Below are positions 50 through 12,488 of a DNA stretch of 12,488 nucleotides, one piece after another. Source of the stretch: Candidatus Micrarchaeota archaeon (GTDB lineage Archaea > Micrarchaeota > Micrarchaeia > Anstonellales > Anstonellaceae). Below the pieces are notes generated by a model that worked only from the letters and a program-made list of their open reading frames with translations, had not been told where the DNA came from and did no database searches. The stretch is from assembly GCA_043810635.1 (NCBI GenBank), contig JBDRNY010000026.1, positions 1-12,488 on the forward strand. Reading direction: 5' to 3'. How positions within the stretch are numbered: position 1 is the stretch's first letter; every line of letters starts with the position of its first letter. The position numbers were made by a program, and so were the translations under genes.

Positions 50-898
50 GTGCATACCATACGGGAGGGAAAAAAGGTTTCAAAAAAGGAGAAATACCTG
101 GGCGCCAGGCTCCCTAAAGATATTGAAGGGCTGAAATCAGAATTTCTTGCTCAAATATGCAAGGAAAAATGGCACCCGATTTTTGAGCGCATAAAATCAG
201 CTTATTCCGGGGAAAACAGGCAGATGCCAAAGGAAGTGCGCCGCAAAAATTTGGAAGCATTTTCCATCCGCTTCACTTATGACACCCAGCGCATTGAGGG
301 CTCCGCCCTCAGCTTGCGGGAAACTGCAGACTTGCTGCAAAAAGGAATCAGCCCGGGCAAAAAACCAATCAGGGATGCAAAAGAGGCGCAGGCACACCAG
401 AAACTTTTGTTTAAAATCCTAAAGCAAAAAAAAGATTTGGCGCCCCAAATTGTTCTTGATTGGCACAAAGAGCTGTTTTGGCAGACCCAGCCAGAGCTGG
501 CAGGAAAGCTTAGGGCATATAAGGTAATGATATCTGGCAGCCGCTTTTCTCCGCCTTCCCCGAACAGGGTTGGGCCGATGCTTATGGAATTTTTTTCATG
601 GTATGAAAAAAACAAGGAGAAAATCCATCCTGTTGAGCTGGCGGCACTGGCCCACCTGAAGTTTGTTACCATCCACCCGTTCGGAGACGGCAACGGCAGG
701 ATTTCACGCCTGCTTATGAACTTTGTGCTTTTTCGCAACGGCTTTCCCATGATAAATATCCACTATGAAAAGCGCAGGAGTTATTATACTGCACTGGAGC
801 ATGCACAAATCCGTGGTGAGGACAGCATTTTTGTGCACTGGCTTTTCAGAAGATATGCCAAAAAATTCAAGGAATATGCTGCAAAGGGGGAAGAATAG
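50..898 (+). CDS. Fic/DOC family protein (class II Fic, adenylyltransferase fold); 5' end may lie beyond the window
   Basis: 282-aa ORF carrying the canonical Fic active-site motif HPFGDGNGRISR (HxFx[DE]GNGRxxR). An upstream TQRIEG stretch matches the [ST]xxxE[GN] auto-inhibitory helix motif. The listed start is GTG at 50, the frame stays open back to position 2, and no convincing ATG/SD is seen, so the N-terminus is uncertain or truncated. Confidence 0.8.
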   Translation: MHTIREGKKVSKKEKYLGARLPKDIEGLKSEFLAQICKEKWHPIFERIKSAYSGENRQMPKEVRRKNLEAFSIRFTYDTQRIEGSALSLRETADLLQKGISPGKKPIRDAKEAQAHQKLLFKILKQKKDLAPQIVLDWHKELFWQTQPELAGKLRAYKVMISGSRFSPPSPNRVGPMLMEFFSWYEKNKEKIHPVELAALAHLKFVTIHPFGDGNGRISRLLMNFVLFRNGFPMINIHYEKRRSYYTALEHAQIRGEDSIFVHWLFRRYAKKFKEYAAKGEE

Positions 899-964: not shown

Positions 965-1010
965 TTGAGAATGATTTTCCCTTTTTTTATTTTATTAAAT
1001 ATTATATTTC

Positions 1011-1289
1011 TTAGCTGATGGTGCCAGGTGCTCTTGTGCCGCCAGTTTTGGTATTTTTTTGGATTTTGCCTGAAATTTTTGATGCAGCAGAGTTAGTATT
1101 TTCGTTTAAATTCACAAGCCTTGTATCTATATCCTTTATTGCACCTTCAATCTCAGGAACAAGCTTTTCATAACGATTACTCAAAGATATCCAGTCGTTG
1201 TCTCGAACTAATTGTAGATAACTAATTAGGGAAGCCTTTGATTTTTGTGAGCCGTTTTTTCCTAAAACTTCTACCAGATCATTTGTCAT
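1011..1289 (-). CDS. Hypothetical protein (93 aa from ATG at 1289). Alternatively the frameshifted C-terminal part of the upstream 1318..2061 gene.
   Basis: The ORF track extends this frame to 1364, but that codon is TTG; the first ATG is at 1289. The frame overlaps the upstream gene's 3' end across an A7 homopolymer (minus strand, around 1311-1319). No recognisable domain. Confidence 0.35.
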   Translation of the reverse strand: MTNDLVEVLGKNGSQKSKASLISYLQLVRDNDWISLSNRYEKLVPEIEGAIKDIDTRLVNLNENTNSAASKISGKIQKNTKTGGTRAPGTIS

Positions 1290-1317
1290 AGTATACAAAT
1301 CAGCGCTCTTGTTTTTT

Positions 1318-2061
1318 TCAAAATAATCCAGGACTATGTTTTTCAAACTCGTTGTTAAATTCAAACCCGCCGTCTTTTCCTATAAACTTGAGCAGGAACC
1401 CATCCCGCAGTAATTCGCCCCTATGGAGCATGTCTTTTTGTTGCTCGGGAGTGTGAGAAAAACGCTTTCGATATGTCCCGTCTTTTATCCTGCTGAAAAT
1501 TTCATGCTTGAGTTCGTTGGATTTGTCAAATCTGGAGAGAAGCCCCGGGGTTAGGGGGCAGTTGTTGTCCTGTGGATTCTTGAGGTAATCGCCGAAAAGA
1601 TGGATTGTACGATAAAATTTTGCGCATGAAAAATCTTTGCATCCGTCCGCATCCGAAGTGTCTGTAAAAACCGATTTTAGAGTTTCAAATGTTCTTATTC
1701 CGGCAACCGCTCTCAGGTCGCCGTAGTAGGAGTCCATCACATCTTCGCGCGTATCTAGTAAGTTGCTCATCGATAACTCTTCGACCTTTATTTTCTCCCG
1801 CATTGCAAGAAGGCACCCCTCCACGGCCTCCTTTAGTTTTTCTGTTTTTGGCTGGACCATGTAGAGGACAACAAGAAGGTAGGGTTGGTGGGTATCATAA
1901 AGGCAATAATCGTAGAAAGGGGAGGATTCTTTTTTTGCCTCTTCTTCCAAAACGGGCTGTATTTCGATTTTAAGGAATTTTGCCAGAGATGCTTCATCTT
2001 TTTCGACTATTGAGGAGTTGAGATTTAATAGGAATTTTATTGGGAATTCTTTTGGGTCCAT
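1318..2061 (-). CDS. Hypothetical protein, about 247 aa
   Basis: Long ORF. The track start at 2079 is TTG; the ATG at 2061 (MDPKEF...) is preceded on the minus strand by GGTGGGT three nt upstream (archaeal SD). A TATA-like TTATAAAA on the minus strand lies at about 2108-2117. No family recognised by eye. Confidence 0.6.
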   Translation of the reverse strand: MDPKEFPIKFLLNLNSSIVEKDEASLAKFLKIEIQPVLEEEAKKESSPFYDYCLYDTHQPYLLVVLYMVQPKTEKLKEAVEGCLLAMREKIKVEELSMSNLLDTREDVMDSYYGDLRAVAGIRTFETLKSVFTDTSDADGCKDFSCAKFYRTIHLFGDYLKNPQDNNCPLTPGLLSRFDKSNELKHEIFSRIKDGTYRKRFSHTPEQQKDMLHRGELLRDGFLLKFIGKDGGFEFNNEFEKHSPGLF

Positions 2062-2149
2062 ATACCCACCACGCCACAATCTTATTGTATGGTTTATGAA
2101 TACATGATTTTATAACACTAACTACGTATTTTCCCTTTTTTTATTTTTC

Positions 2150-3016
2150 TTATGCCAAATTCATAACTGCAGCATATTGCATCCCCTGCCTTGAAATCTT
2201 TCCGGTTTTGCTGCCAACATAATAGATTACTGCTTCTTTGCTTACCCCAATTCCGGCTACCTCTGGCAGGTTGTCCAGGATGTTTGCCCTGTGGTGCGGG
2301 CTTTTCATCCACAAATCCACCAGCGCAAAACCCGCATCTTCAGCCGTATCCTGGACAAAATAGCCAAGCACGGAAACAACACATCCTGTAGGCAGCCTGG
2401 CTATATTCTCCCCGATTCCGTGGGGCGGGGAGGTGCCTGATTTTATTGTATAATTATGCCTTTGCGCGCGCTCATTAGGGCCTTCATTGCGAAGATTGTA
2501 ATGCCCCATGCTGCTGTTGAAAGCCATGCCAATGCTGTGCTCCCGCGCCACTTCTGCAAGAGCATCATCATACTCCAATTCCGGCAGGCCTGCCTTGCGC
2601 CTTTTTGCATTGATATATTTGAAAACAATTTTTTCAATTGCAAAAGTCTTTTCATCAATGCATTGCCCTCTTTTATTCTCCCTGCTTTTTCTTTCTGCCA
2701 ATTCGTAGTATTGGTATTTTCCATCAGCGCTTTTTTCAGAAAATTTTGCAAAAATATCCAGCCCTTCAAAGGTTTTGTTTGCAAAGGAATTCAATTCCCC
2801 GGCAATTTTTGAGATTTTTTCAGAATTTCCCCTTGCAATTGCCAGCTTGACCCTGTTTCTATCCACAAACAAGTCACTTAATATTTGGGAATAAGCCTGC
2901 AGATTTTCCGGCTTTTCCTGCGCTTTTGAAATTTTTGAAGCAAGGGGGTTGAGCAAAAGAATTGCTGCGCCCGCATGCAGAAGAAAGCTTCGCCTGCTGA
3001 TTTGATTAAATTCCAT
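2150..3016 (-). CDS. Secreted CAP/SCP/PR-1-like (YkwD-type) domain protein with a twin-arginine signal peptide
   Basis: The N-terminus MEFNQISRRSFLLHAGAAILL is a Tat motif (SRRxFLL) followed by a hydrophobic segment. The C-terminal half has the CAP-domain signatures GENIA and WMKSPHHRANIL (compare bacterial SCP WMNSPGHRANIL). Confidence 0.85.
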   Translation of the reverse strand: MEFNQISRRSFLLHAGAAILLLNPLASKISKAQEKPENLQAYSQILSDLFVDRNRVKLAIARGNSEKISKIAGELNSFANKTFEGLDIFAKFSEKSADGKYQYYELAERKSRENKRGQCIDEKTFAIEKIVFKYINAKRRKAGLPELEYDDALAEVAREHSIGMAFNSSMGHYNLRNEGPNERAQRHNYTIKSGTSPPHGIGENIARLPTGCVVSVLGYFVQDTAEDAGFALVDLWMKSPHHRANILDNLPEVAGIGVSKEAVIYYVGSKTGKISRQGMQYAAVMNLA

Positions 3017-3283: not shown

Positions 3284-4369
3284 ATGTTTGAGAATATAGT
3301 TGCGGAAGCAAAATCTGATTCTGGTGCAAGTATGCAGAAAAAAGACGAATTTTTGTCAAATGACAAAATAAGAATAGCTATTATAGGTGTTGGCGGGGGC
3401 GGATGCAACACCATAAACAGAATGATGAGAAAGGGAATTAAATCCGCAAGATTGATTGCAATTAATACTGATAATTTGCATTTGAAAAGCATTCAGGCGC
3501 AGGAAAAAATACTTATTGGAAAATCCATTACAAGAGGTTTGGGTGCAGGAGGATTTCCTGAAATTGCTGAAAAATGCGTGCAAGCTTCTAAAAAAGAATT
3601 GACTGAAAAAATTGGGGAAAATGAATTGGTATTTATTACTGCAGGATTGGGCGGAGGGACAGGCACAGGAGGTGCGCCCACAATTGCAGAAATTGCAAAA
3701 GAGCAGGGGGCAATTGTTGTATCAATTGTAACCACCCCGTTCAAATTGGAAAGGGCAAGATTGCAGAAAGCTGAATGGGGCTTGAGAAGGCTGGCTGCTG
3801 CGTCAGATACTGTAGTTGTAATTGACAATAACAGATTATTGCAATATGCTCCAAATGTTCCTATTAATGATGCATTTAACCTCGCTGATGCAATTACTGC
3901 AAAAGCTGTGCAGGGAATTACTGAAACAATTATGTTTCCGTCTTTGCTGAATGTGGATTATGCTGATGTGAAAGCTGTGATGGAAAACGGGGGCATTTCC
4001 CTTATTTCAATAGGGGAAGGGCATGGAAATGACAGAGTGGAGCAGGTGTCAAAAACAACTTTGGAACACCCATTGCTTGATGTTTCTTATGAAGGGGCAA
4101 AAGGAGCATTGCTCCATATCGACGGGGGAAGCTCGCTTACACTCGGGGAAGTTATTAGCATTGGAGAAAGGATTACTGACAAATTTGACTTGAATGCAAA
4201 CGTGAAAATTGGTGCAAGGCTTTCTGAAAGCAAAACTGACGGAATTTCCGCAACCGCAATAGTGACTGGGTTGAAATCTGAGCAGGTTGAAAGAATTATC
4301 GGCACCGAGGAAGATGAAGCAGGAAGGCCGAAGGAAGTAACCACAGTGGAAAACATCACCTATATCTAA
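3284..4369 (+). CDS. ftsZ: Cell division GTPase FtsZ
   Basis: IAIIGVGGGGCNTINRMM nucleotide-binding N-terminus, the tubulin/FtsZ signature GGGTGTG within ITAGLGGGTGTGGAPTIAEIAKE, an NTD motif (AINTDNLHL) and a typical FtsZ C-terminal domain. A GGGGGATGGG SD-like run precedes the ATG. Confidence 0.9.
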   Translation: MFENIVAEAKSDSGASMQKKDEFLSNDKIRIAIIGVGGGGCNTINRMMRKGIKSARLIAINTDNLHLKSIQAQEKILIGKSITRGLGAGGFPEIAEKCVQASKKELTEKIGENELVFITAGLGGGTGTGGAPTIAEIAKEQGAIVVSIVTTPFKLERARLQKAEWGLRRLAAASDTVVVIDNNRLLQYAPNVPINDAFNLADAITAKAVQGITETIMFPSLLNVDYADVKAVMENGGISLISIGEGHGNDRVEQVSKTTLEHPLLDVSYEGAKGALLHIDGGSSLTLGEVISIGERITDKFDLNANVKIGARLSESKTDGISATAIVTGLKSEQVERIIGTEEDEAGRPKEVTTVENITYI

Positions 4370-4413: not shown

Positions 4414-4749
4414 ATGGATTCAGATGATGCAACTGAAAAAATAAATGAGCATTTGTTTGGAAGCAATATTGAAATGATTAAAGTGGAAAAGGGCAGGATA
4501 GTATTTCCGGACGGAAGCAGTGAGCCGGGAAAAGTAAGGGAAATCAGCACAGACAAAAAGGATGGAAAAAATATAGTAACTGTTGTTTTGGAGCCGAAAA
4601 AAGAGGGGAATGTTGAGAGGCAGAAAACAATAATAATAACTTACAGCAGCAAGGAGAGGCACATTCACTGGGACATTAAAACAAAGAAAACGACAACAAC
4701 AATAGACACAATAGGGACTAAAGAGCCGCTTAATGTCGGAAAAAGATAG
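4414..4749 (+). CDS. Hypothetical small Lys/Thr-rich protein (111 aa)
   Basis: ATG-initiated ORF downstream of ftsZ on the same strand, with no overlap by other long ORFs. No domain recognised and the sequence is low-complexity, so coding status is moderate. Confidence 0.5.
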   Translation: MDSDDATEKINEHLFGSNIEMIKVEKGRIVFPDGSSEPGKVREISTDKKDGKNIVTVVLEPKKEGNVERQKTIIITYSSKERHIHWDIKTKKTTTTIDTIGTKEPLNVGKR

Positions 4750-4793: not shown

Positions 4794-4865
4794 GGGCACA
4801 TAGTCGAACGGTAAGACGCTGCCTTCGCAAGGCAGAGACTGGGGGTTCGATTCCCCCTGTGTCCA
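4794..4865 (+). tRNA. tRNA-Ala (anticodon CGC), 72 nt, no encoded CCA
   Basis: Cloverleaf folded by hand. Acceptor GGGCACA/TGTGTCC includes the G3:U70 alanine identity pair. D-stem is GTC/GAC. Anticodon stem is CTGCC/GGCAG with loop TTCGCAA (anticodon CGC). T-arm is GGGGG-TTCGATT-CCCCC. Discriminator is A. Confidence 0.9.
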
Positions 4866-4867
4866 TT

Positions 4868-5515
4868 ATGAAATCCGCAGTATTATTTTCTGGAGGGAAA
4901 GATTCGGCTTATGCAACCCAGTGGGCGCTGGAGCAGGGGCATGAAGTAATTTGGGTTAATATGCAGCCGCAGGAAGATTCGATGATGTTTCATCACCCTA
5001 ATGTAAAATGGTGCAAATTGCAATCCCAGGCTGCGGAGATAGAATTGAAAACATTTGATACAAAGCATGAGAGGGAATTAATAGATTTGGAAAATGCATT
5101 AAAGAAATTGGATGTGGAAGGGGTTGTTACGGGCGCGGTTGCTTCGGTTTACCAAAAATCCAGGATTGATAAAATTGCAAATAAATTGAAATTGGAGGTG
5201 TTTTCCCCTTTGTGGGGGAAAGATGAAGAATTTTTGAAAAAAATGTTAAGTGAAATGGAAGTGTATATTGTTTCTATTTCTGCTGAAGGGCTGGGAGAAG
5301 AATGGCTGGGGAAAAAATTTGAGAAAGAGGATGTGGATAAATTATCTGCCCTGCAGCCGAAAATAAATGTTTATTTGGAAGGCGGGGAGGGGGAAACTTT
5401 TGTTGCAGATGCGCCTTTTTTCAAAAAAAGAATTGAAATATTAAAATGGGAAAAGAAATTTGACGGAATGAGGGGGAAGGCGGTTATTAAAGAGGCGAAG
5501 TTAGTGGAGAAATAA
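4868..5515 (+). CDS. dph6: Diphthine-ammonia ligase-like PP-loop ATP pyrophosphatase (MJ0570/Dph6 family)
   Basis: N-terminal PP-loop LFSGGKDS and the C-terminal LEGGEGETF (EGGE motif), with a size of about 215 aa typical for archaeal Dph6/MJ0570. The ATG at 4868 is only 2 nt after the tRNA-Ala discriminator; the track start at 4859 is GTG inside the tRNA. Confidence 0.75.
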   Translation: MKSAVLFSGGKDSAYATQWALEQGHEVIWVNMQPQEDSMMFHHPNVKWCKLQSQAAEIELKTFDTKHERELIDLENALKKLDVEGVVTGAVASVYQKSRIDKIANKLKLEVFSPLWGKDEEFLKKMLSEMEVYIVSISAEGLGEEWLGKKFEKEDVDKLSALQPKINVYLEGGEGETFVADAPFFKKRIEILKWEKKFDGMRGKAVIKEAKLVEK

Positions 5516-5516
5516 T

Positions 5517-6128
5517 TTATTCCTCTCCTTTTTGGGCCAGATTTTCTATTCTTGTTATCATGTCATTTAATTCTTTTCCATAAACCGCATTTACTTTTAA
5601 TGTGGCGGAAAAGCGGGTGTCTATAGGCATTTCCTTGTTTATTGTTATTTCCTGGCCTTCAGTTGCTTTTTCAGGGTCGAGGGGAATGTCTGCCTTAATT
5701 CTCAAGCCATCCAACACAGTGAGCTGGACAATTTGGCCGGTGTTGGAGCGGGCTGTTAATTCTGAATCAATTGGTATTGTTTGGTCTATTTTTAATACAA
5801 AATCTTCTGGAAAAACATCTGAAATCGGGAAAGATTGGTCTATAACAACAGTTGTTTTAAGGGGGGAAGTCATTACAATTTCTTTTTGCTGAATTTCCCT
5901 CAAATCCTGGGCTATTGCCATTAATTCTGCCCTGTCTTGTGTGGATAAGCCGGGGGGGGAGGTTATGTTAAGGAAGATAGAAGTGAGGGAAAGTAGTATT
6001 GCAATAATTGCAAGAAATGTTGTGGTATCTGGCTTGAATTTTGGCTTATTGCCTGAAAAGCTTAGTTTTGATGCTTTTCTTCCTTTAAAGCCGGAAGGAA
6101 GGTGCGAAACAGATGATGGGGATGCCAT
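5517..6128 (-). CDS. Hypothetical membrane-anchored protein (N-terminal TM helix followed by a beta-rich extracytoplasmic domain, possibly SAF/CpaB-like)
   Basis: ATG start at 6128. The basic N-terminus precedes the hydrophobic segment FLAIIAILLSLTSIFL. Convergent with dph6 (stop-to-stop spacing 1 nt). Confidence 0.6.
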   Translation of the reverse strand: MASPSSVSHLPSGFKGRKASKLSFSGNKPKFKPDTTTFLAIIAILLSLTSIFLNITSPPGLSTQDRAELMAIAQDLREIQQKEIVMTSPLKTTVVIDQSFPISDVFPEDFVLKIDQTIPIDSELTARSNTGQIVQLTVLDGLRIKADIPLDPEKATEGQEITINKEMPIDTRFSATLKVNAVYGKELNDMITRIENLAQKGEE

Positions 6129-6190: not shown

Positions 6191-6472
6191 ATGCCTAAAG
6201 TGACTTTTAGCAAGGACAAGATTACTGTGGAAGTGCCTGCTGGCACAAAGCTTGTTGATGTTGCGGAAAAAAACGGTGCAAACATTAATTTTTCCTGCAA
6301 AGAGGGAGTGTGCTTAACCTGCCTTGTAAATATTATTTCAGGAAAGGAAAATTTGAATCCTATGACTGAAAATGAAAAAAGCACTTTGGAAGCGTTTGGG
6401 GCAAAGCCGGGGCAGAGATTGGCATGCCAGGTAATTGTAACCGGGGATTGTGTGATTGAATCAGTGGAGTGA
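6191..6472 (+). CDS. [2Fe-2S] ferredoxin (plant/adrenodoxin-type cysteine pattern)
   Basis: 93 aa with C-x4-C-x2-C ... C ligand spacing (CKEGVCLTC ... ACQV). A GGTGATAGG SD lies 3-4 nt upstream of the ATG. Confidence 0.8.
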   Translation: MPKVTFSKDKITVEVPAGTKLVDVAEKNGANINFSCKEGVCLTCLVNIISGKENLNPMTENEKSTLEAFGAKPGQRLACQVIVTGDCVIESVE

Positions 6473-7085: not shown

Positions 7086-7218
7086 GCCGGTGTCGCATAA
7101 CCTGGTAGTGCGCTGGTCTTGAAGAGCCCTTTTCCACCTTTGGTGCAAAAGCCCTCGGGGAAAAGCTCTGGAAAACCAGTTCCTTACGGAATTGTAGGTT
7201 CAAATCCTGCCGCCGGCG
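7086..7218 (+). tRNA. tRNA-Ser (anticodon UGA), class II with long variable arm, interrupted by a ~50-nt intron (about 7124..7173) at the canonical 37/38 position; no encoded CCA
   Basis: Hand fold. Acceptor GCCGGTG/CGCCGGC has one G:U. D-stem is GCAT/GTGC with a 9-nt GG-containing loop. Anticodon stem 5' CTGGT (7113-7117) pairs with ACCAG (7175-7179) only if 7124-7173 is removed, leaving loop CTTGAAA (anticodon TGA). Variable arm is TTCC-TTAC-GGAA (14 nt). T-arm is GTAGG-TTCAAAT-CCTGC. Discriminator G73 fits Ser identity. The intron termini form a helix AGAGC/GCTCT compatible with a BHB-like splice motif. Confidence 0.8.
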
Positions 7219-7311
7219 TCGCTTCGCTCCGCCTTACGGCAGTCCCCCCAACAAGTTGAGGACCTACAAAGTGCGCGAGCACTGGGGCACCATCGCCATG
7301 GGCGATGATTG

Positions 7312-7412: not shown

Positions 7413-8429
7413 ATGGGCAGTAAAGCAATTCTTGGTTTGATATTTCTGTCTTTGATGCTTTTTATTTTTGTTTCAGGCTGTACCCAGGAGGCATTTGCAT
7501 GCAACAAACCATATATCCAAGTAGGCTCGGAATGCTGCCTGGACCAGGATAGCAACGAAATATGCGACAAAGATGAACAGGGGCAGCAGCCTGCCGCACA
7601 AGGTGCAAATGCAGATGAAAATGCAATGGGTGCGACTGGAGATGAGGCAGGCTCTGCAAATGCCACTGCAGATGAGAATGCAATTGGCGCGGGCGAGGCA
7701 GGCGCTAAAGATGCCGGCGTAGGCGGGGGAGGGGCATTTGAGGAATGGAAAGCTCCTGACGGCTCAATCACGCTGCAGGTGCCTGCGGGCTGGAAACCAA
7801 GTGAGAAGCAGGTGGACACGTGCACTGTAAGCTGGGCTGTGCTAGACCCTGCAGGCACGAGCTCTGCCTACATGGACAACGAGATAATGGTTCTGAAGTC
7901 TGAGGATGCGCGGCAGATGTACAAAACATATGGCATGAGCGGGATTGACAATGCTCCTGTGAGCAGCTATCTTGGGGCAGAGCAGGCAGTGCAGCAAATT
8001 ATTGCGCCGCTCACCGGCGCAAGCAATGTGCGGATAATTTATACTGATGATGCGATGAGCCAGCAATTCTCGCAGGCTGTGTGCATTGCAGGCTTTGCAG
8101 CGTGCGATGCGCGGGTTTTCGAGGCTGCCTACCAGAGGAACGGAATCCTGATGAGGGGCAAATACTTTGTGCAGACTTATGATTTCGGCGAGGGCACCAC
8201 GTGGTGGATAAATATCTGGGGCTATACTTCGCCTGCTGAAGGCTGGGACAATTCCATTCCTGTGCTGGAAAGAACATTCACCTCGGTAAAATATACTGAT
8301 GAGTGGGCTGCCAAGTGCCAGAAGAACTCTGATGAAGCAAGCGCTGTGATTGGCGAAGTGGTTAAGAGCAGGCAGGCATCGTCAGAAAAGTCAGCAGAGG
8401 AGTGGGACAAGTATATTAGGGGCGGATAA
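7413..8429 (+). CDS. Secreted lipoprotein candidate of unknown function, GC-rich relative to its surroundings, with a Gly/Ala/Asp/Glu-rich repeat linker
   Basis: AGGTGGT SD lies 5 nt upstream of the ATG. The signal peptide MGSKAILGLIFLSLMLFIFVSGC has a lipobox-like VSGC. The linker has near-tandem repeats ADENAMGATGDEAGSANAT / ADENAIGAGEAGAKDAG, followed by a Cys-containing globular domain. Composition is visibly GC-richer (roughly 55-60% by eye) than flanking genes. Confidence 0.75.
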   Translation: MGSKAILGLIFLSLMLFIFVSGCTQEAFACNKPYIQVGSECCLDQDSNEICDKDEQGQQPAAQGANADENAMGATGDEAGSANATADENAIGAGEAGAKDAGVGGGGAFEEWKAPDGSITLQVPAGWKPSEKQVDTCTVSWAVLDPAGTSSAYMDNEIMVLKSEDARQMYKTYGMSGIDNAPVSSYLGAEQAVQQIIAPLTGASNVRIIYTDDAMSQQFSQAVCIAGFAACDARVFEAAYQRNGILMRGKYFVQTYDFGEGTTWWINIWGYTSPAEGWDNSIPVLERTFTSVKYTDEWAAKCQKNSDEASAVIGEVVKSRQASSEKSAEEWDKYIRGG

Positions 8430-8520: not shown

Positions 8521-8668
8521 TAAATATTAGGCAACCAAAAAACTGCGAAAAATTTGCATAACAAAATTTCTTTTGCCTGGGAGGGCGAAAGAAAATTTTT
8601 GTTTATTAGGGAGGCTGATTGAATGGTGCCTTTTGGAAAAAGTATTTCTTCTTTTTTTATTTTATTTC

Positions 8669-8693
8669 TTATTTTTCTTCAATAAAATCCTCA
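8669..8693 (+). repeat. Direct repeat copy 1 (TATTTTTCTTCAATAAAATC[C/T]TCAA) flanking the COG1373 ATPase cassette
   Basis: A 20-nt exact match, extending to 25 nt with one mismatch, to 10479-10503. Both copies are preceded by T7-ATTTT runs. Confidence 0.5.
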
Positions 8694-8817
8694 AGCATCT
8701 GCCTTGCAACGGGGTCTGAAAATTGTTTTGGGGGGTGTTTCATAAAATAAGCTGAAGGCGCTTCAAGAGGGCCGGCAATCCCCCTGTCAAGGGCGATTTG
8801 AGCGCAATGCCCATTTC

Positions 8818-10083
8818 CTAATTCCCCTTCCCAAGAAGAAACTCATATACCGGCATATATTCAAGCTTTATCGGCTTTGAAACTTTTTTTCTGAAATTTT
8901 TGGTAATTACCATGGCTTTCTTGCATTTGTATTTTTTGCAGAAAAGCACAAGTGCGTTTTCCCGCTCTGGCTTTGCCCTGTATTTTATTTCCACAGGCAT
9001 AATTCCCTTTGCGCCGGCAAGGATCATGTCAATCTCGTTTTTGCGCTTGTCTCTCCAGAAATATTTTGCACCAGAGCGGAGTATGCAGACTGCCTCCACA
9101 AGCTTTGAAAAATATTCCTCCCCCCCATGGCCGGAAAGCGCGGGGCTTAAGAATGAGGGATAATACTTCTTGAGCCTTTTTTCCGAAGTTGCCCTGTTCC
9201 TTGAAAAGTTGTAAAGCTTTTTTACAAGGTGCGCGCGCTCAAGGTAGTCAAAATACTTGGATACAGTCTGCCTTGATATTCCAAGCTCGCGGGAAAATGA
9301 GTCAAAATCAACCACCATGCCGGGGTTGTCTGCCAATATGTTGAGCATGGAAATGAGGATTTGCGGATTTTCTATGGGGTATAATTTTTTCATGTCCTTG
9401 AAAACAATCTTCTCCACTACTGAATCCTTGATATAATCCCTCACAAGGGCGGCATCTTTTTTCCCTATAATCTCGGGGAAGCCCGCGCACATAACATAGC
9501 CTTCAAATTCCGCCCTCAACTCCGCATCATAAACAAGCGGCTTTTTTGCAAGCCCTTCTTTTCCCCTGAATTTAAGGTATTCTGCAAAAGACAATGCCTC
9601 AACCTCGAATTCGTAAATCCTTCCTGCAAGGCTTTCGCGCGAACCTTCAAGCAGGAAAAGGGATTCTGAGCCGCTGGCAAATATCCTGTATTTTCCGCTG
9701 TCATACAAAACTTTGACTTTTTCAGCCCAATTTCCAAGCTTCTGCACCTCGTCAAGCAGGAGGAATTTCGGCTCCCTGCCGTGCATTGCCATAAATTCGT
9801 CTATTATCTCAAGAAGCTCTCCCCCCGCAAAATCATCAAATGAAAAATACATAATGGAATCGGGGGGGTTTGTTTTCAGCAGGTCGGATATTATCTTGTT
9901 GAGCAACGTGCTTTTGCCAACCCTTCTCAGGCCGCACAATGCGATTATCTGCCTCTCACCCATCCTTTTGGATATCTTTTTATATATCTCCCGCTCCACA
10001 TAGGCAAATTCATGCTTCCCTTTCCAAAAGGGGTTGAATTCTACCAACATCCTTCTTATTTTTTCGTTAATTTTAATCACCAT
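8818..10083 (-). CDS. AAA+ superfamily ATPase of the COG1373 type (AAA_14 + DUF4143 architecture), function unknown
   Basis: Walker A GLRRVGKST and Walker B FLLLDEVQ in the N-terminal half. The C-terminal region (…YFWRDKRKNEIDMILA…VEIKY) is typical of the DUF4143 domain of this archaea-abundant, usually multi-copy family. Clean ATG at 10083. Confidence 0.85.
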   Translation of the reverse strand: MVIKINEKIRRMLVEFNPFWKGKHEFAYVEREIYKKISKRMGERQIIALCGLRRVGKSTLLNKIISDLLKTNPPDSIMYFSFDDFAGGELLEIIDEFMAMHGREPKFLLLDEVQKLGNWAEKVKVLYDSGKYRIFASGSESLFLLEGSRESLAGRIYEFEVEALSFAEYLKFRGKEGLAKKPLVYDAELRAEFEGYVMCAGFPEIIGKKDAALVRDYIKDSVVEKIVFKDMKKLYPIENPQILISMLNILADNPGMVVDFDSFSRELGISRQTVSKYFDYLERAHLVKKLYNFSRNRATSEKRLKKYYPSFLSPALSGHGGEEYFSKLVEAVCILRSGAKYFWRDKRKNEIDMILAGAKGIMPVEIKYRAKPERENALVLFCKKYKCKKAMVITKNFRKKVSKPIKLEYMPVYEFLLGKGN

Positions 10084-10094
10084 AAAGTAAACTA

Positions 10095-10114
10095 TGTGTT
10101 AATTATACTTAACA
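10095..10114. promoter_or_regulatory. Palindrome GTGTTAA-ttatac-TTAACAC overlapping a TATA-like element 12-31 bp upstream of the ATPase start codon
   Basis: Perfect 7-bp inverted repeat read directly. On the minus strand it reads GTATAATTAAC, a plausible TATA box for a short-leader transcript of the ATPase gene. Confidence 0.35.
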
Positions 10115-10181
10115 CAAAGTTAAAAAGGCTTTCGGATGCTGGCTGAAGGGCCGATTATTGAGCCTCCTATTCCTGCCTAAC

Positions 10182-10239
10182 ATTTTGTAACTATTCTTTT
10201 ACAAAATACCTGCTTTTTGTAATATCAACTTTACAAAAT
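10182..10239. promoter_or_regulatory. Tandem pair of 9-N8-9 palindromes: ATTTTGTAA-N8-TTACAAAAT (10182-10207) and TTTTTGTAA-N8-TTACAAAAT (10214-10239), about 32 bp centre-to-centre. Candidate double operator.
   Basis: Half-sites are exact reverse complements (second site has one variant base in the left half). The spacing of about three helical turns is typical of cooperative dimeric transcription-factor sites. Located 100-155 bp upstream of the ATPase gene and just upstream of the structured region 10290-10445. Confidence 0.45.
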
Positions 10240-10289
10240 GCAAATATATGCCGCTTTATTTGTGCGGATTTTTGTACTGAGAATTTGCA

Positions 10290-10445
10290 GCATGTTATAG
10301 CAAACCACGAAAGTTTTACGAATTTCCTGCTTTGCTTCTGCCTCGTGGTTTGCTAGGTTGCAGGCCGCATTACGGCAAACCAGAAGAGGTTTGCCGGGCT
10401 GCAGGACGCTTAAGCGGACTGCAGGACTTTGGCGGACTGCAATAA
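10290..10445 (+). other. GC-rich, highly structured non-coding segment (candidate sRNA gene) with nested GCAAACC-based hairpins and tandem GCGGACTGCAGGAC-like repeats
   Basis: Hairpin A is GCAAACCACGA (10303-10313) / TCGTGGTTTGC (10343-10353). Hairpin B is GGCAAACC-agaaga-GGTTTGCC (10374-10395). Three degenerate tandem units contain CTGCAG (10396-10442). An AAATATAT TATA-like element precedes at about 10242-10249 and long oligo-T tracts follow (10455-10490). Only short, mutually overlapping ORFs cross it. Confidence 0.3.
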
Positions 10446-10478
10446 TTTGCATTTATTTTTTTCTAATTTTTTTATTTT

Positions 10479-10503
10479 TATTTTTCTTCAATAAAATCTT
10501 CAA
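10479..10503 (+). repeat. Direct repeat copy 2 (TATTTTTCTTCAATAAAATCTTCAA), partner of 8669-8693
   Basis: See copy 1. The two copies bracket about 1.8 kb containing the ATPase gene, its palindromic promoter region, the double operator and the structured non-coding region. Confidence 0.5.
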
Positions 10504-10715
10504 CCCGACATATGCAGAAGACAATGATTATAGTACATACGCATCTCGCCAGAGCGGATTGCCTTCGGTCTATTATAGTTATTCCACTTCAATACCTTCA
10601 GGCATGACTGCTGCAACATGGCATGTAAAACACGGAGATATTGCCGCATATGACATAACTCTGGTATCGTCCTGCAGAAATCAAAATCCAATACAACTTA
10701 GAATTAGGAAACTAT

Positions 10716-10949
10716 TTATTGCAGCTTTTTCAATATTGCACCTAAGAGGATAACAAGCCCAATTATTATCAGTATTGAAGGGCATATGGGAACATTAAAG
10801 CTCCACCATGCAAGCTCTTTTCCGAACCAATATAATCCAATAAGGGATATCGCAACTCCTACGAGAATGCTTCCCCAGCTTATACGAGTGCTATGATGCC
10901 ATTTCCATCCCCTTTCCCATTCTCTAAAATCCATCTGTTTTTTTACCAT
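10716..10949 (-). CDS. Small membrane protein (77 aa, two predicted TM helices), co-operonic with gvp genes
   Basis: ATG at 10949 is preceded on the minus strand by GTGGTGTT (GGTG SD) with correct spacing. It has two hydrophobic stretches and an 8-nt gap to the upstream gene. Confidence 0.5.
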   Translation of the reverse strand: MVKKQMDFREWERGWKWHHSTRISWGSILVGVAISLIGLYWFGKELAWWSFNVPICPSILIIIGLVILLGAILKKLQ

Positions 10950-11171: not shown

Positions 11172-11426
11172 CTACACCACCACCTCGACCTTTTTATCCT
11201 TTTTTACCTCTTCATCCGCCATCTCCATCCGTATTTTTTCATCCAAATCTTCCATCATGCCATAGCTTATCATAGTGTCCATATTGGCAAGAGCAGCCCT
11301 TAAATTGATTCCTAATAGTGGAACACCGGCAAGGGTTACAACAACATCTGCTTGAATGACAATCCCTTTGTCGAGGACCCTGCCCAGCAAGTCCACAAGC
11401 GCAGAATTTTCATCTTTCAATTCCAT
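11172..11426 (-). CDS. Gas vesicle structural protein of the GvpA/GvpJ/GvpM family (acidic C-terminal tail, more GvpJ-like)
   Basis: Core LVDLLGRVLDKGIVIQADVVVTLAGVPLLGINLRAALANMDTMISYG aligns with the GvpA consensus (LAEVLDRVLDKGVVVDxWxRxSLVGIEILTVEARVVxASVDTxLxYAE). The ATG at 11426 is preferred because the longer track start at 11477 is TTG. Confidence 0.8.
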   Translation of the reverse strand: MELKDENSALVDLLGRVLDKGIVIQADVVVTLAGVPLLGINLRAALANMDTMISYGMMEDLDEKIRMEMADEEVKKDKKVEVVV

Positions 11427-11757: not shown

Positions 11758-12488
11758 TCATAAAAATGAATACGGAGCCCAAGGCCCGGTTATGCGGCCG
11801 GAAAGATTGTTAAAATCATCCATTTTTTCCAATTCTTCCTTAAATTGTGCGGCATTTTCTTTTTGTATAAGGCAAGAAACATTTAGCAGCATAGTTTTTC
11901 CATCTGCTTTCCTTGTTTTTCCGGAGCGCATATCACTGCAACAATTTTTTATTATGGATTGCACTTCTTTTGCGAGCTCGCTGGTTTTTTCCCCAAGTTC
12001 CTTTTTAACCACGCTTTCAAATGTCTGCTTGCACAGGTATGCATGGCCTGGCGAATCTGCTGCTTCCATTTTCTTTTTCAATTCGGCCACTCTCTCATTT
12101 TTATTAAGAATGTCCTGAAGAAGCCTTTCCCTGTCCATAAATACTTGAACACCATATTCCTGCTTGCCTCTAAGCTCGTTTAGTTTTCTTTCTAAATCAG
12201 GATGCTGCTCTTCAAGCCATTTTTGCACAGCCTCGTTTGACCCGCTATCTTTCTCTTTTATTATGGTGTCAAACCTCAAAGGAACAGCCGCGTTGAATTT
12301 ATTAAAGGCGAGATCAATGACGCTATTGTGGGCCTGTGCATAATTAATAATAACATTTTCATCCTTTGAATCATAGGCTTTAGGAAGGCAATTATGCACT
12401 ACTGCGCTTATGCCCAAATGTGGAATTGTATATACATTGTTTTCTTCTATGCCAATTTTGCCAAGGCTGATAAAATCGCCAGTATCAA
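11758..12488 (-). CDS. Gas vesicle protein GvpF/GvpL family (5' end beyond window)
   Basis: The C-terminus ...SGRITGPWAPYSFL matches the conserved GvpF/L terminal motif (GPWPPYSF). The coiled, charged central region is typical. The frame stays open past the TTG at 12417 to the window edge (upstream residues ...DFISLGKIGIEENNVYTIPHLG resemble the GvpF N-terminal beta-strand region). Confidence 0.85.
   Translation of the reverse strand, partial: DTGDFISLGKIGIEENNVYTIPHLGISAVVHNCLPKAYDSKDENVIINYAQAHNSVIDLAFNKFNAAVPLRFDTIIKEKDSGSNEAVQKWLEEQHPDLERKLNELRGKQEYGVQVFMDRERLLQDILNKNERVAELKKKMEAADSPGHAYLCKQTFESVVKKELGEKTSELAKEVQSIIKNCCSDMRSGKTRKADGKTMLLNVSCLIQKENAAQFKEELEKMDDFNNLSGRITGPWAPYSFL

What the first reader, a model, noticed from the sequence alone, without database searches (positions are those of the whole stretch)
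8669..10503. COG1373 AAA+ ATPase (AAA_14+DUF4143) cassette bracketed by 20-25 bp direct repeats
TATTTTTCTTCAATAAAATC occurs identically at 8669-8688 and 10479-10498, and extends to 25 nt with one mismatch. The two copies bracket about 1.8 kb: the ATPase gene, its palindrome-containing promoter, a tandem operator and a structured non-coding region. COG1373 ATPases are notoriously multi-copy and patchily distributed in archaeal genomes. Flanking direct repeats would fit a cassette that moves or recombines, for example as a target-site duplication or a site-specific recombination site. Alternatively the repeat is a shared terminator or UTR module. Either way the unit appears modular.
Basis: partly seen in the sequence, partly recalled or inferred. 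Interest (0 to 1): 0.5.

Follow-up and report, generated by a model that had tools for sequence, protein, structure and literature searches.

The report
Inserted ATPase gene flanked by duplicated gene end
The two repeats are duplicate copies of the tail end of a broken inositol-phosphate synthase gene. They mark where a single candidate antiviral ATPase gene was inserted into an archaeal chromosome, and related archaea show the same pattern at other sites.

Summary
The repeat is real. An exact 20-mer lies at 8670-8689 and 10479-10498. It extends to 25 nt with one mismatch and to about 51 nt at 80-86% identity. Chance does not explain it.

The repeat is not a free-standing motif. On the minus strand it is the last 8 codons (EDFIEEK), the stop codon and about 25 nt of downstream sequence of an inositol-3-phosphate synthase (MIPS) gene. 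The copy at 8644-8694 ends a 45-codon MIPS pseudogene fragment that starts 12 nt after the ATPase stop. The copy at 10451-10503 is an orphan.

The ATPase (AAA_14 + DUF4143, PADLOC candidate PDC-S01) looks intact.

Four other Micrarchaeota loci carry 54-62% identical ATPases with the same layout: host segment, about 65 nt of promoter and palindrome, the ATPase, then a second copy of the host segment starting at the ATPase stop. The duplicated sequences are unrelated between loci and 51-137 nt long. Two relatives of one locus have the uninterrupted empty site.

So the ATPase is a one-gene insertion cassette, and the repeats are its junction duplication. How it integrates is unresolved. I favour a homology-based single crossover over a transposon-type target-site duplication. 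No published description was found.

The parts
8644..8694 (-). Downstream (D) repeat copy. On the minus strand it reads as the last 8 MIPS codons (EDFIEEK), the stop TAA (8669-8671) and about 25 nt of downstream sequence. That downstream part is T-rich on the plus strand.
   Evidence: frame
8669..8806 (-). 3'-terminal pseudogene fragment of inositol-3-phosphate synthase: 45 codons plus stop. Homology starts 12 nt after the ATPase stop codon. The open frame runs back to 8842, overlapping the ATPase 3' end.
   Evidence: TIGR03450 positions 314-355 of 355, E 1.9e-12. PDB 1GR0 residues 324-365 of 367, E 2.8e-9. 76% identity to the C-terminus of archaeal MIPS P0121, tblastn E 2.8e-21.
8818..10083 (-). 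COG1373-type ATPase, 421 aa: AAA+/STAND-like NTPase, winged helix, and a C-terminal PD-(D/E)XK domain (DUF4143). It matches PADLOC candidate defence gene PDC-S01.
   Evidence: Pfam. PADLOC PDC-S01, E 4e-59, full length. Invariant G51/G56/K57, D111/E112 and D352...E365-x-K367 in 32 homologues. Model pLDDT 89.6; nearest folds are CED-4/Apaf-1/Avs, Orc1 and RuvB.
10096..10128 (-). Conserved cassette 5' part: an A/T-rich TATA-like box (about 10119-10128) and the palindrome GTGTTAA-N6-TTAACAC (10096-10115), about 13 nt upstream of the ATG.
   Evidence: The same box plus a GTTAA..TTAAC-type palindrome sits at the same distance from the ATG in 8 homologous loci.
10181..10240 (.). Two tandem palindromes (TTTTGTAA-N6/7-TTTACAAAA) lying between the repeats. 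They are absent from the other cassettes.
   Evidence: I4; no match in any of the 201 loci fetched by then.
10262..10450 (+). GC-rich structured element between the repeats, function unknown. On the plus strand it is followed directly by the T-tract of the U copy.
   Evidence: MFE -78.5 kcal/mol, z -5.8. Two hairpins are conserved, with 2 compensatory changes, upstream of the closest ATPase homologue at L177 812-900. No Rfam family.
10451..10503 (-). Upstream (U) repeat copy: an orphan remnant with the same last 8 MIPS codons, stop (10478-10480) and downstream sequence. The frame upstream of it is not MIPS-like.
   Evidence: No MIPS match in minus-strand pieces of 10084-10760.

Best explanation
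The 1.8-kb unit is a one-gene insertion cassette carrying a COG1373 / PDC-S01 ATPase-nuclease. The two repeats are the junction copies of a host segment that was duplicated when the cassette integrated. That segment is the 3' end of an inositol-3-phosphate synthase (MIPS) gene plus the T-rich tract behind it.

Shown: the repeat is MIPS coding sequence plus its 3' flank. The D copy is the end of a 45-codon MIPS pseudogene that abuts the ATPase stop. The layout 'host segment / promoter and palindrome / ATPase / host segment again' recurs at four other loci with unrelated duplicated sequences. One such locus has empty sites in relatives.

Inferred: the cassette enters as a DNA molecule that already carries a short copy of the target region from a related genome. 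It integrates by a single reciprocal crossover (Campbell-type, homologous or core-dependent). This leaves one copy joined to the host gene and one after the ATPase. In this contig the MIPS gene body and most of the upstream copy were later deleted, so only 51 nt of the U copy remain.

The ATPase itself most likely acts in defence, as a nucleotide-switched nuclease, and not in its own movement.

The confidence of 0.65 is for the cassette-plus-junction-duplication reading as a whole. That the repeat is a duplicated MIPS 3' end I put at about 0.9, and the single-crossover mechanism at about 0.4.
For: (1) Identity of the repeat. The minus-strand frame 8669-8806 matches the extreme C-terminus of MIPS (TIGR03450, E 1.9e-12; 1GR0 residues 324-365 of 367; tblastn E 2.8e-21). 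Both copies read EDFIEEK-stop. The single mismatch in the 25-mer is a synonymous GAG/GAA change.

(2) Recurrence. L178 has the 3' end of a radical-SAM/TRAM gene at 5859-5908, repeated at 7253-7310. L179 (= L180, an independent assembly) has the last about 70 nt of a phosphoglucomutase gene at 3444-3513, repeated at 4894-4962 with 95% identity. L201 has three copies of a 3' end plus T-tract around two ATPases that are only 29% identical to each other. L202 has 137 nt of non-coding sequence at 89% identity. In every case the second copy starts within -25 to +30 nt of the ATPase stop. In the window the MIPS remnant starts at +12.

(3) Empty sites. L198 and L199 have phosphoglucomutase followed directly by the same downstream genes, with one copy of the segment. 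The D copy plus right flank of L179 matches them.

(4) Specificity. In about 96 kb of these loci, long-range direct repeats are found almost only at ATPase flanks.

(5) Against a fixed-stagger transposase and for a crossover. Duplication lengths are 51, 70, about 70 and 137 nt. There are no terminal inverted repeats and no recombinase gene. In L178, 6 of 6 differences in the 11-codon core are at third codon positions and 5 are synonymous. This suggests both copies evolved as coding sequence in separate lineages. In L179 the variant ends of U and D are distributed reciprocally relative to the relatives.
Against: No close relative of this contig was available, so there is no empty site for the window itself. 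The rest of the source genome could not be searched.

The U copy is not attached to an intact MIPS gene, so a later deletion must be assumed.

The unit in the window is about 300 nt longer than the other cassettes. It carries extra palindromes and a structured element that the model does not explain.

Four of nine loci (L177, L181, L191, L200) show no flanking duplication. Three of the nine loci were picked because their ORFs had long C-terminal tails, so 5 of 9 is a biased rate.

The 'identical core, diverged edges' pattern in L179 and L202 is also what gene conversion between old repeats would give.

How a cassette first acquires a copy of its target is not explained. No circular form has been observed.
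Confidence: 0.65

Rival explanations
1. The repeats are a long, variable target-site duplication. The cassette, or a host nuclease, makes staggered breaks 50-140 nt apart, or a replication template switch occurs in a 3'-end/terminator region. The cassette is joined in and the gaps are filled. The repeats are then target-derived only, and the cassette may be autonomous through its own PD-(D/E)XK nuclease.
For: The duplicated sequence differs at every locus and is always host sequence. The cassette has the same limits everywhere, from the promoter box to the stop codon. It encodes an intact nuclease motif. In L201 two unrelated cassettes sit in tandem at one site, which would fit a target preference for 3' ends or T-tracts.
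Against: The length varies from 51 to 137 nt within one protein family. There are no terminal inverted repeats. The differences in L178 lie at synonymous positions. In L179 and L202 the outer parts of the two copies are homologous but diverged, with reciprocal variants. In the window the D side carries about 135 nt of MIPS, but only 51 nt are repeated.
Confidence: 0.2
2. The unit is the decayed remnant of a larger integrase-borne element (virus or plasmid) that integrated into the 3' end of the MIPS gene. The repeats would be attL and attR, and everything but a cargo defence gene has been deleted.
For: Direct repeats formed from the 3' end of a target gene are the classical signature of tyrosine-recombinase integration (established knowledge). 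The extra 300 nt with palindromes and a structured element in the window could be leftovers.
Against: No integrase or other element gene lies between the repeats in any of the five loci. In all five the limits coincide with the ATPase promoter and stop codon. The insertion missing from the L198/L199 empty sites is just the 1.45-kb one-gene unit, with repeats still 95% identical.
Confidence: 0.08
3. The repeat is a functional module, such as a plus-strand oligo-T terminator or a 3'-UTR element, kept similar by selection. It would have no connection to insertion.
For: The T-rich half resembles five other plus-strand T-tracts in the contig. CTTTTTTTATTTT occurs exactly at 981, 2135 and 8651 and with one mismatch at 10466. 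The U-copy T-tract directly follows a structured plus-strand element.
Against: The exact part of the repeat (TTCAATAAAATCYTCAA) is MIPS coding sequence, not T-tract. The repeat has no stable hairpin, only -2 to -3 kcal/mol. The comparative pattern at other loci involves unrelated, partly coding sequences.
Confidence: 0.05
4. The match is a chance similarity between two AT-rich intergenic stretches.
For: The sequence is AT-rich. The 20-mer has 176 exact chance matches in about 1 Tb of public sequence.
Against: Within 12.5 kb the expectation is 0.02, and blastn self-comparison gives E 1e-8. Both copies are in frame with a MIPS C-terminus and on the same strand. The same architecture recurs elsewhere.
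Confidence: 0.01

Closest known systems
PDC-S01 (PADLOC phage-defence candidate) = COG1373, AAA_14 + DUF4143 ATPases
   Same: Full-length HMM match, E 4e-59. The domain order matches, and the Walker A/B and PD-(D/E)XK motifs are intact. The literature describes the family as an ATPase fused to a PD-(D/E)XK domain. It is the fourth most common candidate defence system in prokaryotes, is enriched in Archaea, is found 'embedded' inside other operons, and is not yet validated experimentally (PMC12988326; bioRxiv 10.1101/2024.01.29.577857; PMC3424549).
   Different: No paper I could search describes these genes as discrete cassettes flanked by duplicated host sequence.
Integrative elements that insert into the 3' end of a gene and leave attL/attR direct repeats, and their integrase-less derivatives (cis-mobilisable elements, CIMEs); from my own knowledge
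   Same: The repeats are made of the 3' end of a host gene. The host gene stays intact because its end is duplicated. Tandem accretion occurs at one site (L201). A matching empty site exists.
   Different: There is no integrase in or next to the unit. The unit is a single gene of about 1.35 kb. The att-like sequence differs for each locus among ATPases that are 54-62% identical to the window's.
Transposons with target-site duplications
   Same: A discrete inserted unit is flanked by a duplication of target sequence.
   Different: There is no transposase and no terminal inverted repeats. The duplication is 51-137 nt and of variable length, whereas transposon duplications are short and fixed.
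Defence islets or 'minimal mobile elements' exchanged between conserved flanking genes by homologous recombination (Neisseria and others); from my own knowledge
   Same: A small cargo sits between conserved housekeeping genes with presence/absence polymorphism among relatives. Spread is probably by host recombination.
   Different: Those elements leave no duplication of the flank. Here a 51-137-nt segment is present twice.
Integron gene cassettes
   Same: Single co-oriented genes are separated by repeated junction sequences, with an array-like tandem in L201.
   Different: The repeats have no attC-like hairpin. There is no integron integrase. The junction sequences are host gene ends.

Membership tests
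COG1373 / PDC-S01 ATPase | AAA_14 P-loop domain followed by DUF4143 | tested here: met
   PF13173 at residues 44-170, E 3e-30; PF13635 at residues 229-369, E 5e-19.
COG1373 / PDC-S01 ATPase | Full-length match to the PADLOC PDC-S01 models | tested here: met
   PDLC04787, E 4.2e-59, residues 27-418 against model positions 9-408 of 412.
COG1373 / PDC-S01 ATPase | Intact Walker A/B and PD-(D/E)XK catalytic motif | tested here: met
   G51, G56, K57, D111, E112, D352, E365 and K367 are invariant in 32 homologues.
COG1373 / PDC-S01 ATPase | Protection against viruses | not testable with these tools
   The literature states that validation is pending (PMC12988326).
Inositol-3-phosphate synthase gene | Full-length enzyme of about 360 aa with NAD-binding and catalytic domains | tested here: not met
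   Only the last 45 codons are present. No further MIPS match was found in flanking minus-strand pieces. It is therefore a pseudogene fragment.
Transposon with target-site duplication | Transposase gene within the unit | tested here: not met
   The ATPase is the only gene between the repeats. No transposase family was found in the window ORFs.
Transposon with target-site duplication | Terminal inverted repeats at the unit ends | tested here: not met
   Best end-to-end inverted alignment scores are 12-18, at background level, in 5 cassettes.
Transposon with target-site duplication | Duplication of fixed, short length within a family | tested here: not met
   Lengths are 51, about 51, about 70, about 70 and 137 nt.
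Integrase-mediated integrative element | Tyrosine or serine recombinase gene in the element | tested here: not met
   None lies between the repeats in the window, L178, L179, L201 or L202.
Integrase-mediated integrative element | Direct repeats formed from the 3' end of the target gene, and an empty site with one copy | tested here: met
   Met for L179 against L198 and L199. For the window the repeats are present, but no empty site could be looked for.
Integron cassette | attC site: imperfect palindrome folding into a hairpin | tested here: not met
   The repeat folds at only -2 to -3 kcal/mol, z between -0.7 and -2.2.

The most novel reading that the evidence does not exclude
PDC-S01 / COG1373 genes are autonomous one-gene mobile elements. 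The AAA+ switch, winged helix and PD-(D/E)XK nuclease of the encoded protein would themselves cut at the 3' ends of host genes. They would drive integration with a long, variable duplication that keeps both neighbouring genes intact. This would be a new class of mobile element and would explain why this family is so abundant, multi-copy and 'embedded' in operons.
Probability: 0.12. Interest if true: 0.85.

Novelty: new variant of a known kind. Interest (0 to 1): 0.6.

Why it matters
PDC-S01 / COG1373 is reported as the fourth most common candidate defence system in prokaryotes. It is especially abundant in Archaea and in small-genome DPANN lineages (PMC12988326). How such single genes spread is not known.

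A discrete cassette with recognisable junction duplications would give a concrete, countable signature of gain. It would allow dating and mapping of insertions and excisions in metagenomes. It would also make the mechanism testable, whether host recombination or the encoded nuclease.

The result also shows that these insertions can sit between abutting genes without damaging either. That would explain why they are found 'embedded' in operons.

Tried and rejected
(1) Genome-wide copies of the repeat. Exact 20-mer scans gave 62 matches in genome contigs and 114 in metagenome contigs. All were single and none showed extended similarity. The source genome is not in either collection, and the exact look-up of the ATPase found no record.

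(2) Viral contigs. There were no close relatives, and only two at 24-25% identity.

(3) Plus-strand reading of the repeat as the end of a small hydrophobic ORF (…IFLQ-stop; 8623..8685 has a GGAGG upstream). I set this aside because the minus-strand MIPS match is highly significant and the two plus-strand ORFs share no start or frame upstream.

(4) ncRNA explanations. There was no Rfam family in either non-coding region, even at E <= 10.

(5) attC-like or terminator hairpin in the repeat: none.

(6) Terminal inverted repeats at the cassette ends: none.

(7) More MIPS remnants upstream of the U copy: none by HMM. There was one weak stretch at 10129-10173, left as a lead.

(8) Whether any inserted gene in these genomes is flanked by duplications. 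The DUF234-ATPase insertion in L198 is not.

(9) Using L198/L199 to identify a donor lineage for L179. All three are only about 80% identical, which is too distant.

(10) Pfam check of the small Lys/Arg-rich ORF after the phosphoglucomutase gene: no hit.
Full report
**Source and gene content**

The window is a complete 12,488-nt contig of an NCBI metagenome-assembled genome named 'Candidatus Micrarchaeota archaeon'. The ATPase has a 100% identical database entry whose longest contig is 12,488 nt. The gene content is archaeal: FtsZ, diphthamide synthase, an intron-containing tRNA and gas-vesicle genes.

- The exact 20-mer is at 8670-8689 and 10479-10498.
- Shuffles expect 0.02 matches.
- The similarity runs to 25 nt with one mismatch, 46 nt ungapped at 80%, and about 50 nt at 86% with small indels (E 1e-8).
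- Between the copies lies one gene, 8818..10083 on the minus strand, with AAA_14 and DUF4143 domains.

**What the repeat is**

Read on the minus strand, both copies end with ...EDFIEEK and a TAA stop.

For the copy at 8644-8694 this frame stays open for 57 codons. Its last 45 codons (8672-8806) match the extreme C-terminus of inositol-3-phosphate synthase (MIPS):
- NCBIfam TIGR03450, positions 314-355 of 355, E 1.9e-12.
- Solved structure 1GR0, residues 324-365 of 367, E 2.8e-9.
- 76% identity to an archaeal MIPS C-terminus, tblastn E 2.8e-21.

The fragment begins 12 nt after the ATPase stop codon. The rest of the enzyme is absent, so it is a pseudogene.

The repeat is therefore the last 8 MIPS codons, the stop, and about 25 nt of 3' flank.

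The other copy (10451-10503) is an orphan. The sequence upstream of it is not MIPS-like.

**The ATPase**

- It matches the PADLOC candidate defence family PDC-S01 over its full length, E 4e-59.
- Walker A, Walker B and a D...ExK nuclease motif are invariant in 32 homologues.
- DUF4143 is classified in the PD-(D/E)XK superfamily (PMC3424549).
- A confident model (pLDDT 89.6) is closest to STAND and initiator-type NTPases: CED-4, Apaf-1, Avs4/5, Orc1 and RuvB.
- This fits a nucleotide-switched nuclease of the defence type and does not resemble a recombinase.
- The literature calls PDC-S01 very common, archaea-enriched and unvalidated (PMC12988326).

**Related loci**

No close relative of the contig exists in the searchable data; the best ATPase homologue is 64% identical. 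I fetched the loci of eight homologues (54-64% identity), all with different neighbours. Four of them show the same architecture as the window.

| Locus | First (U) copy | Second (D) copy | Note |
|---|---|---|---|
| L178 | 5859-5908, last 17 codons of a radical-SAM/TRAM gene | 7253-7310, overlaps the ATPase stop | 6 of 6 differences in the conserved core are at third codon positions, 5 synonymous |
| L179 (= L180, independent assembly) | 3444-3513, last about 70 nt of a phosphoglucomutase gene | 4894-4962 | 95% identical; the ATPase ORF reads 8 codons into the second copy |
| L201 | 1492-1563, 3' end of a 505-aa gene plus its T-tract | 2891-2964 and 4431-4481 | Three copies bracket two tandem ATPases only 29% identical to each other |
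| L202 | 4804-4940, non-coding sequence with two hairpins | 6297-6432 | 137 nt at 89%; the central 96 nt are identical |

In all cases the second copy starts within -25 to +30 nt of the ATPase stop. The conserved cassette starts at an A/T-rich box about 60 nt upstream of the ATG, followed by a GTTAA..TTAAC-type palindrome.

Four loci (L177, L181, L191, L200) show no duplication. Three of the nine loci were chosen because the ORFs had long C-terminal tails, so 5 of 9 is not an unbiased rate.

A self-comparison of about 96 kb of these loci found long-range direct repeats almost only at ATPase flanks.

**Empty sites**

Two relatives of L179 were examined; their phosphoglucomutase is 87-89% identical. 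They have the same gene order, but the ATPase is absent and the segment occurs once (L198, L199).

The alignment shows that the second copy in L179 and everything to its right is the ancestral sequence.

The stretch just after the phosphoglucomutase stop is 98-100% conserved between L179 and L199. On the opposite strand of L198 it encodes a 37-aa Lys/Arg-rich ORF whose end overlaps the phosphoglucomutase stop. It looks like ribosomal protein eL41 to me, though Pfam gave no hit.

So the cassette sits exactly between two abutting convergent genes, and the duplication leaves both intact.

**Mechanism**

A classical transposon is unlikely:
- There is no transposase.
- There are no terminal inverted repeats.
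- Duplications range from 51 to 137 nt within one protein family.

An integrase-borne element is unlikely because nothing but the ATPase lies between the repeats in five loci. The unit missing from the empty sites is just 1.45 kb.

I favour integration by one reciprocal crossover between the chromosome and a short copy of the same region carried on the incoming cassette. Three results point that way:
- The variable length of the duplication.
- The synonymous differences in L178.
- The reciprocal distribution of variant ends in L179 (U-left and D-right look resident; U-right 'SFL-stop' and D-left 'AAAAG' match another lineage).

This is inference. The identical-core, diverged-edge pattern could also come from gene conversion between old repeats. 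The first acquisition of a target copy is not explained. A variable target duplication, from staggered breaks or a replication template switch, remains a serious rival.

**The window under this model**

The cassette integrated at the 3' end of a MIPS gene that converged on the 338-aa gene at 7413..8429. The duplicated segment was at least the 135 nt of MIPS sequence plus 25 nt of flank now seen on the D side. The MIPS gene body and most of the U copy were later deleted, leaving 51 nt.

The model does not explain the extra 300 nt between the U copy and the promoter. That stretch holds two palindromes at 10181-10240 and a strongly structured element at 10262-10450. Two hairpins of the structured element recur, with compensatory changes, upstream of the closest ATPase homologue.

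**The T-rich half of the repeat**

It is not specific to this unit. CTTTTTTTATTTT occurs exactly at 981, 2135 and 8651 and with one mismatch at 10466, always on the plus strand. An exact 20-mer at 974-993 and 2128-2147 brackets two other minus-strand ORFs directly after the stop of a CAP-domain gene. That may be a second cassette of the same kind.

**Literature**

Searches for DUF4143, COG1373, PDC-S01, AAA_14 and Micrarchaeota with direct repeats found no description of this insertion architecture.

**Verdict**

It is a cassette, but the repeat is a duplicated host gene end, not a family-specific site or a short target-site duplication. I rate it a new variant of a known kind of integrated islet, of moderate to high interest because the gene family is so widespread.

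Noticed in passing
window 974-993 and 2128-2147: An exact 20-mer, ATTTTCCCTTTTTTTATTTT, brackets two minus-strand ORFs of unknown function (1011..1364 and 1318..2079). It lies directly after the stop of a CAP-domain gene (2150..3016). The architecture and motif family match the 3' flank of the MIPS remnant, so this may be a second cassette.
   Followed up: partly
window 10262-10450; L177 812-900 (minus strand): A GC-rich structured element (MFE -78.5 kcal/mol, z -5.8) has no Rfam match. Two of its hairpins are conserved, with two compensatory changes, upstream of the closest ATPase homologue. On the plus strand it is preceded by an AAATATAT box and followed by a T-tract, so it may be a small RNA gene.
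   Followed up: partly
window 10129-10173, minus strand: A weak second MIPS-like stretch (GIGGSIIGPSASIRK against GIGGxLxAPSAYFMK, tblastn E 0.5-1.3) lies directly upstream of the ATPase promoter. It could be a third decayed copy or chance.
   Followed up: partly
window 974, 2127, 3095, 4372, 8642, 10451: All six strongly T-rich tracts of the contig are on the plus strand. The only A-rich tract lies inside a gene. Yet half of the genes are on the minus strand.
   Followed up: no
window 11172-11426 and 11758-12417, minus strand: Gas-vesicle genes (GvpA-type, Pfam E 7e-15; GvpL/GvpF, E 1e-49) occur in a Micrarchaeota contig, next to two small membrane proteins.
   Followed up: no
window 50-898, plus strand: A Fic-domain protein matches the PADLOC models PDC-S04 and SoFic (E 4e-31 and 4e-29). 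This is a second candidate defence gene on the same short contig.
   Followed up: partly
window 7086-7218, plus strand: Rfam finds a tRNA (41 bits) spread over 133 nt that ARAGORN misses. It is probably an intron-containing archaeal tRNA. A tRNA-Ala at 4794-4865 overlaps the listed GTG start of the diphthamide synthase ORF.
   Followed up: no
L198 1086-2847: A different archaeal ATPase (ATPase_2/AAA_14 + DUF234) and a 115-aa gene are inserted between the epimerase and phosphoglucomutase genes. This insertion is absent in L199 and L179 and has no flanking duplication.
   Followed up: partly
L198 4181-4294 (minus strand); L179 about 4950-5060: A 37-aa Lys/Arg-rich ORF ([37 protein letters not shown]) converges on and overlaps the phosphoglucomutase stop. 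The region is 98-100% conserved between lineages that are about 80% identical elsewhere. It looks like ribosomal protein eL41, but Pfam gave no hit.
   Followed up: partly
L179 9483-10685; L201 6164-6917; L202 7970-8908: Other mobile or defence genes lie near ATPase cassettes. A TnpB/OrfB_IS605 gene in L179 is absent from L198 and L199. An AbiEii gene lies next to the tandem ATPases in L201. A LAGLIDADG endonuclease gene is in L202.
   Followed up: no
L181 3456-7120: An ATPase plus a GNAT acetyltransferase sits inside the glycine-cleavage operon, between gcvH and gcvP. The arrangement is identical in at least 10 contigs from different samples, and no flanking duplication is detectable.
   Followed up: partly
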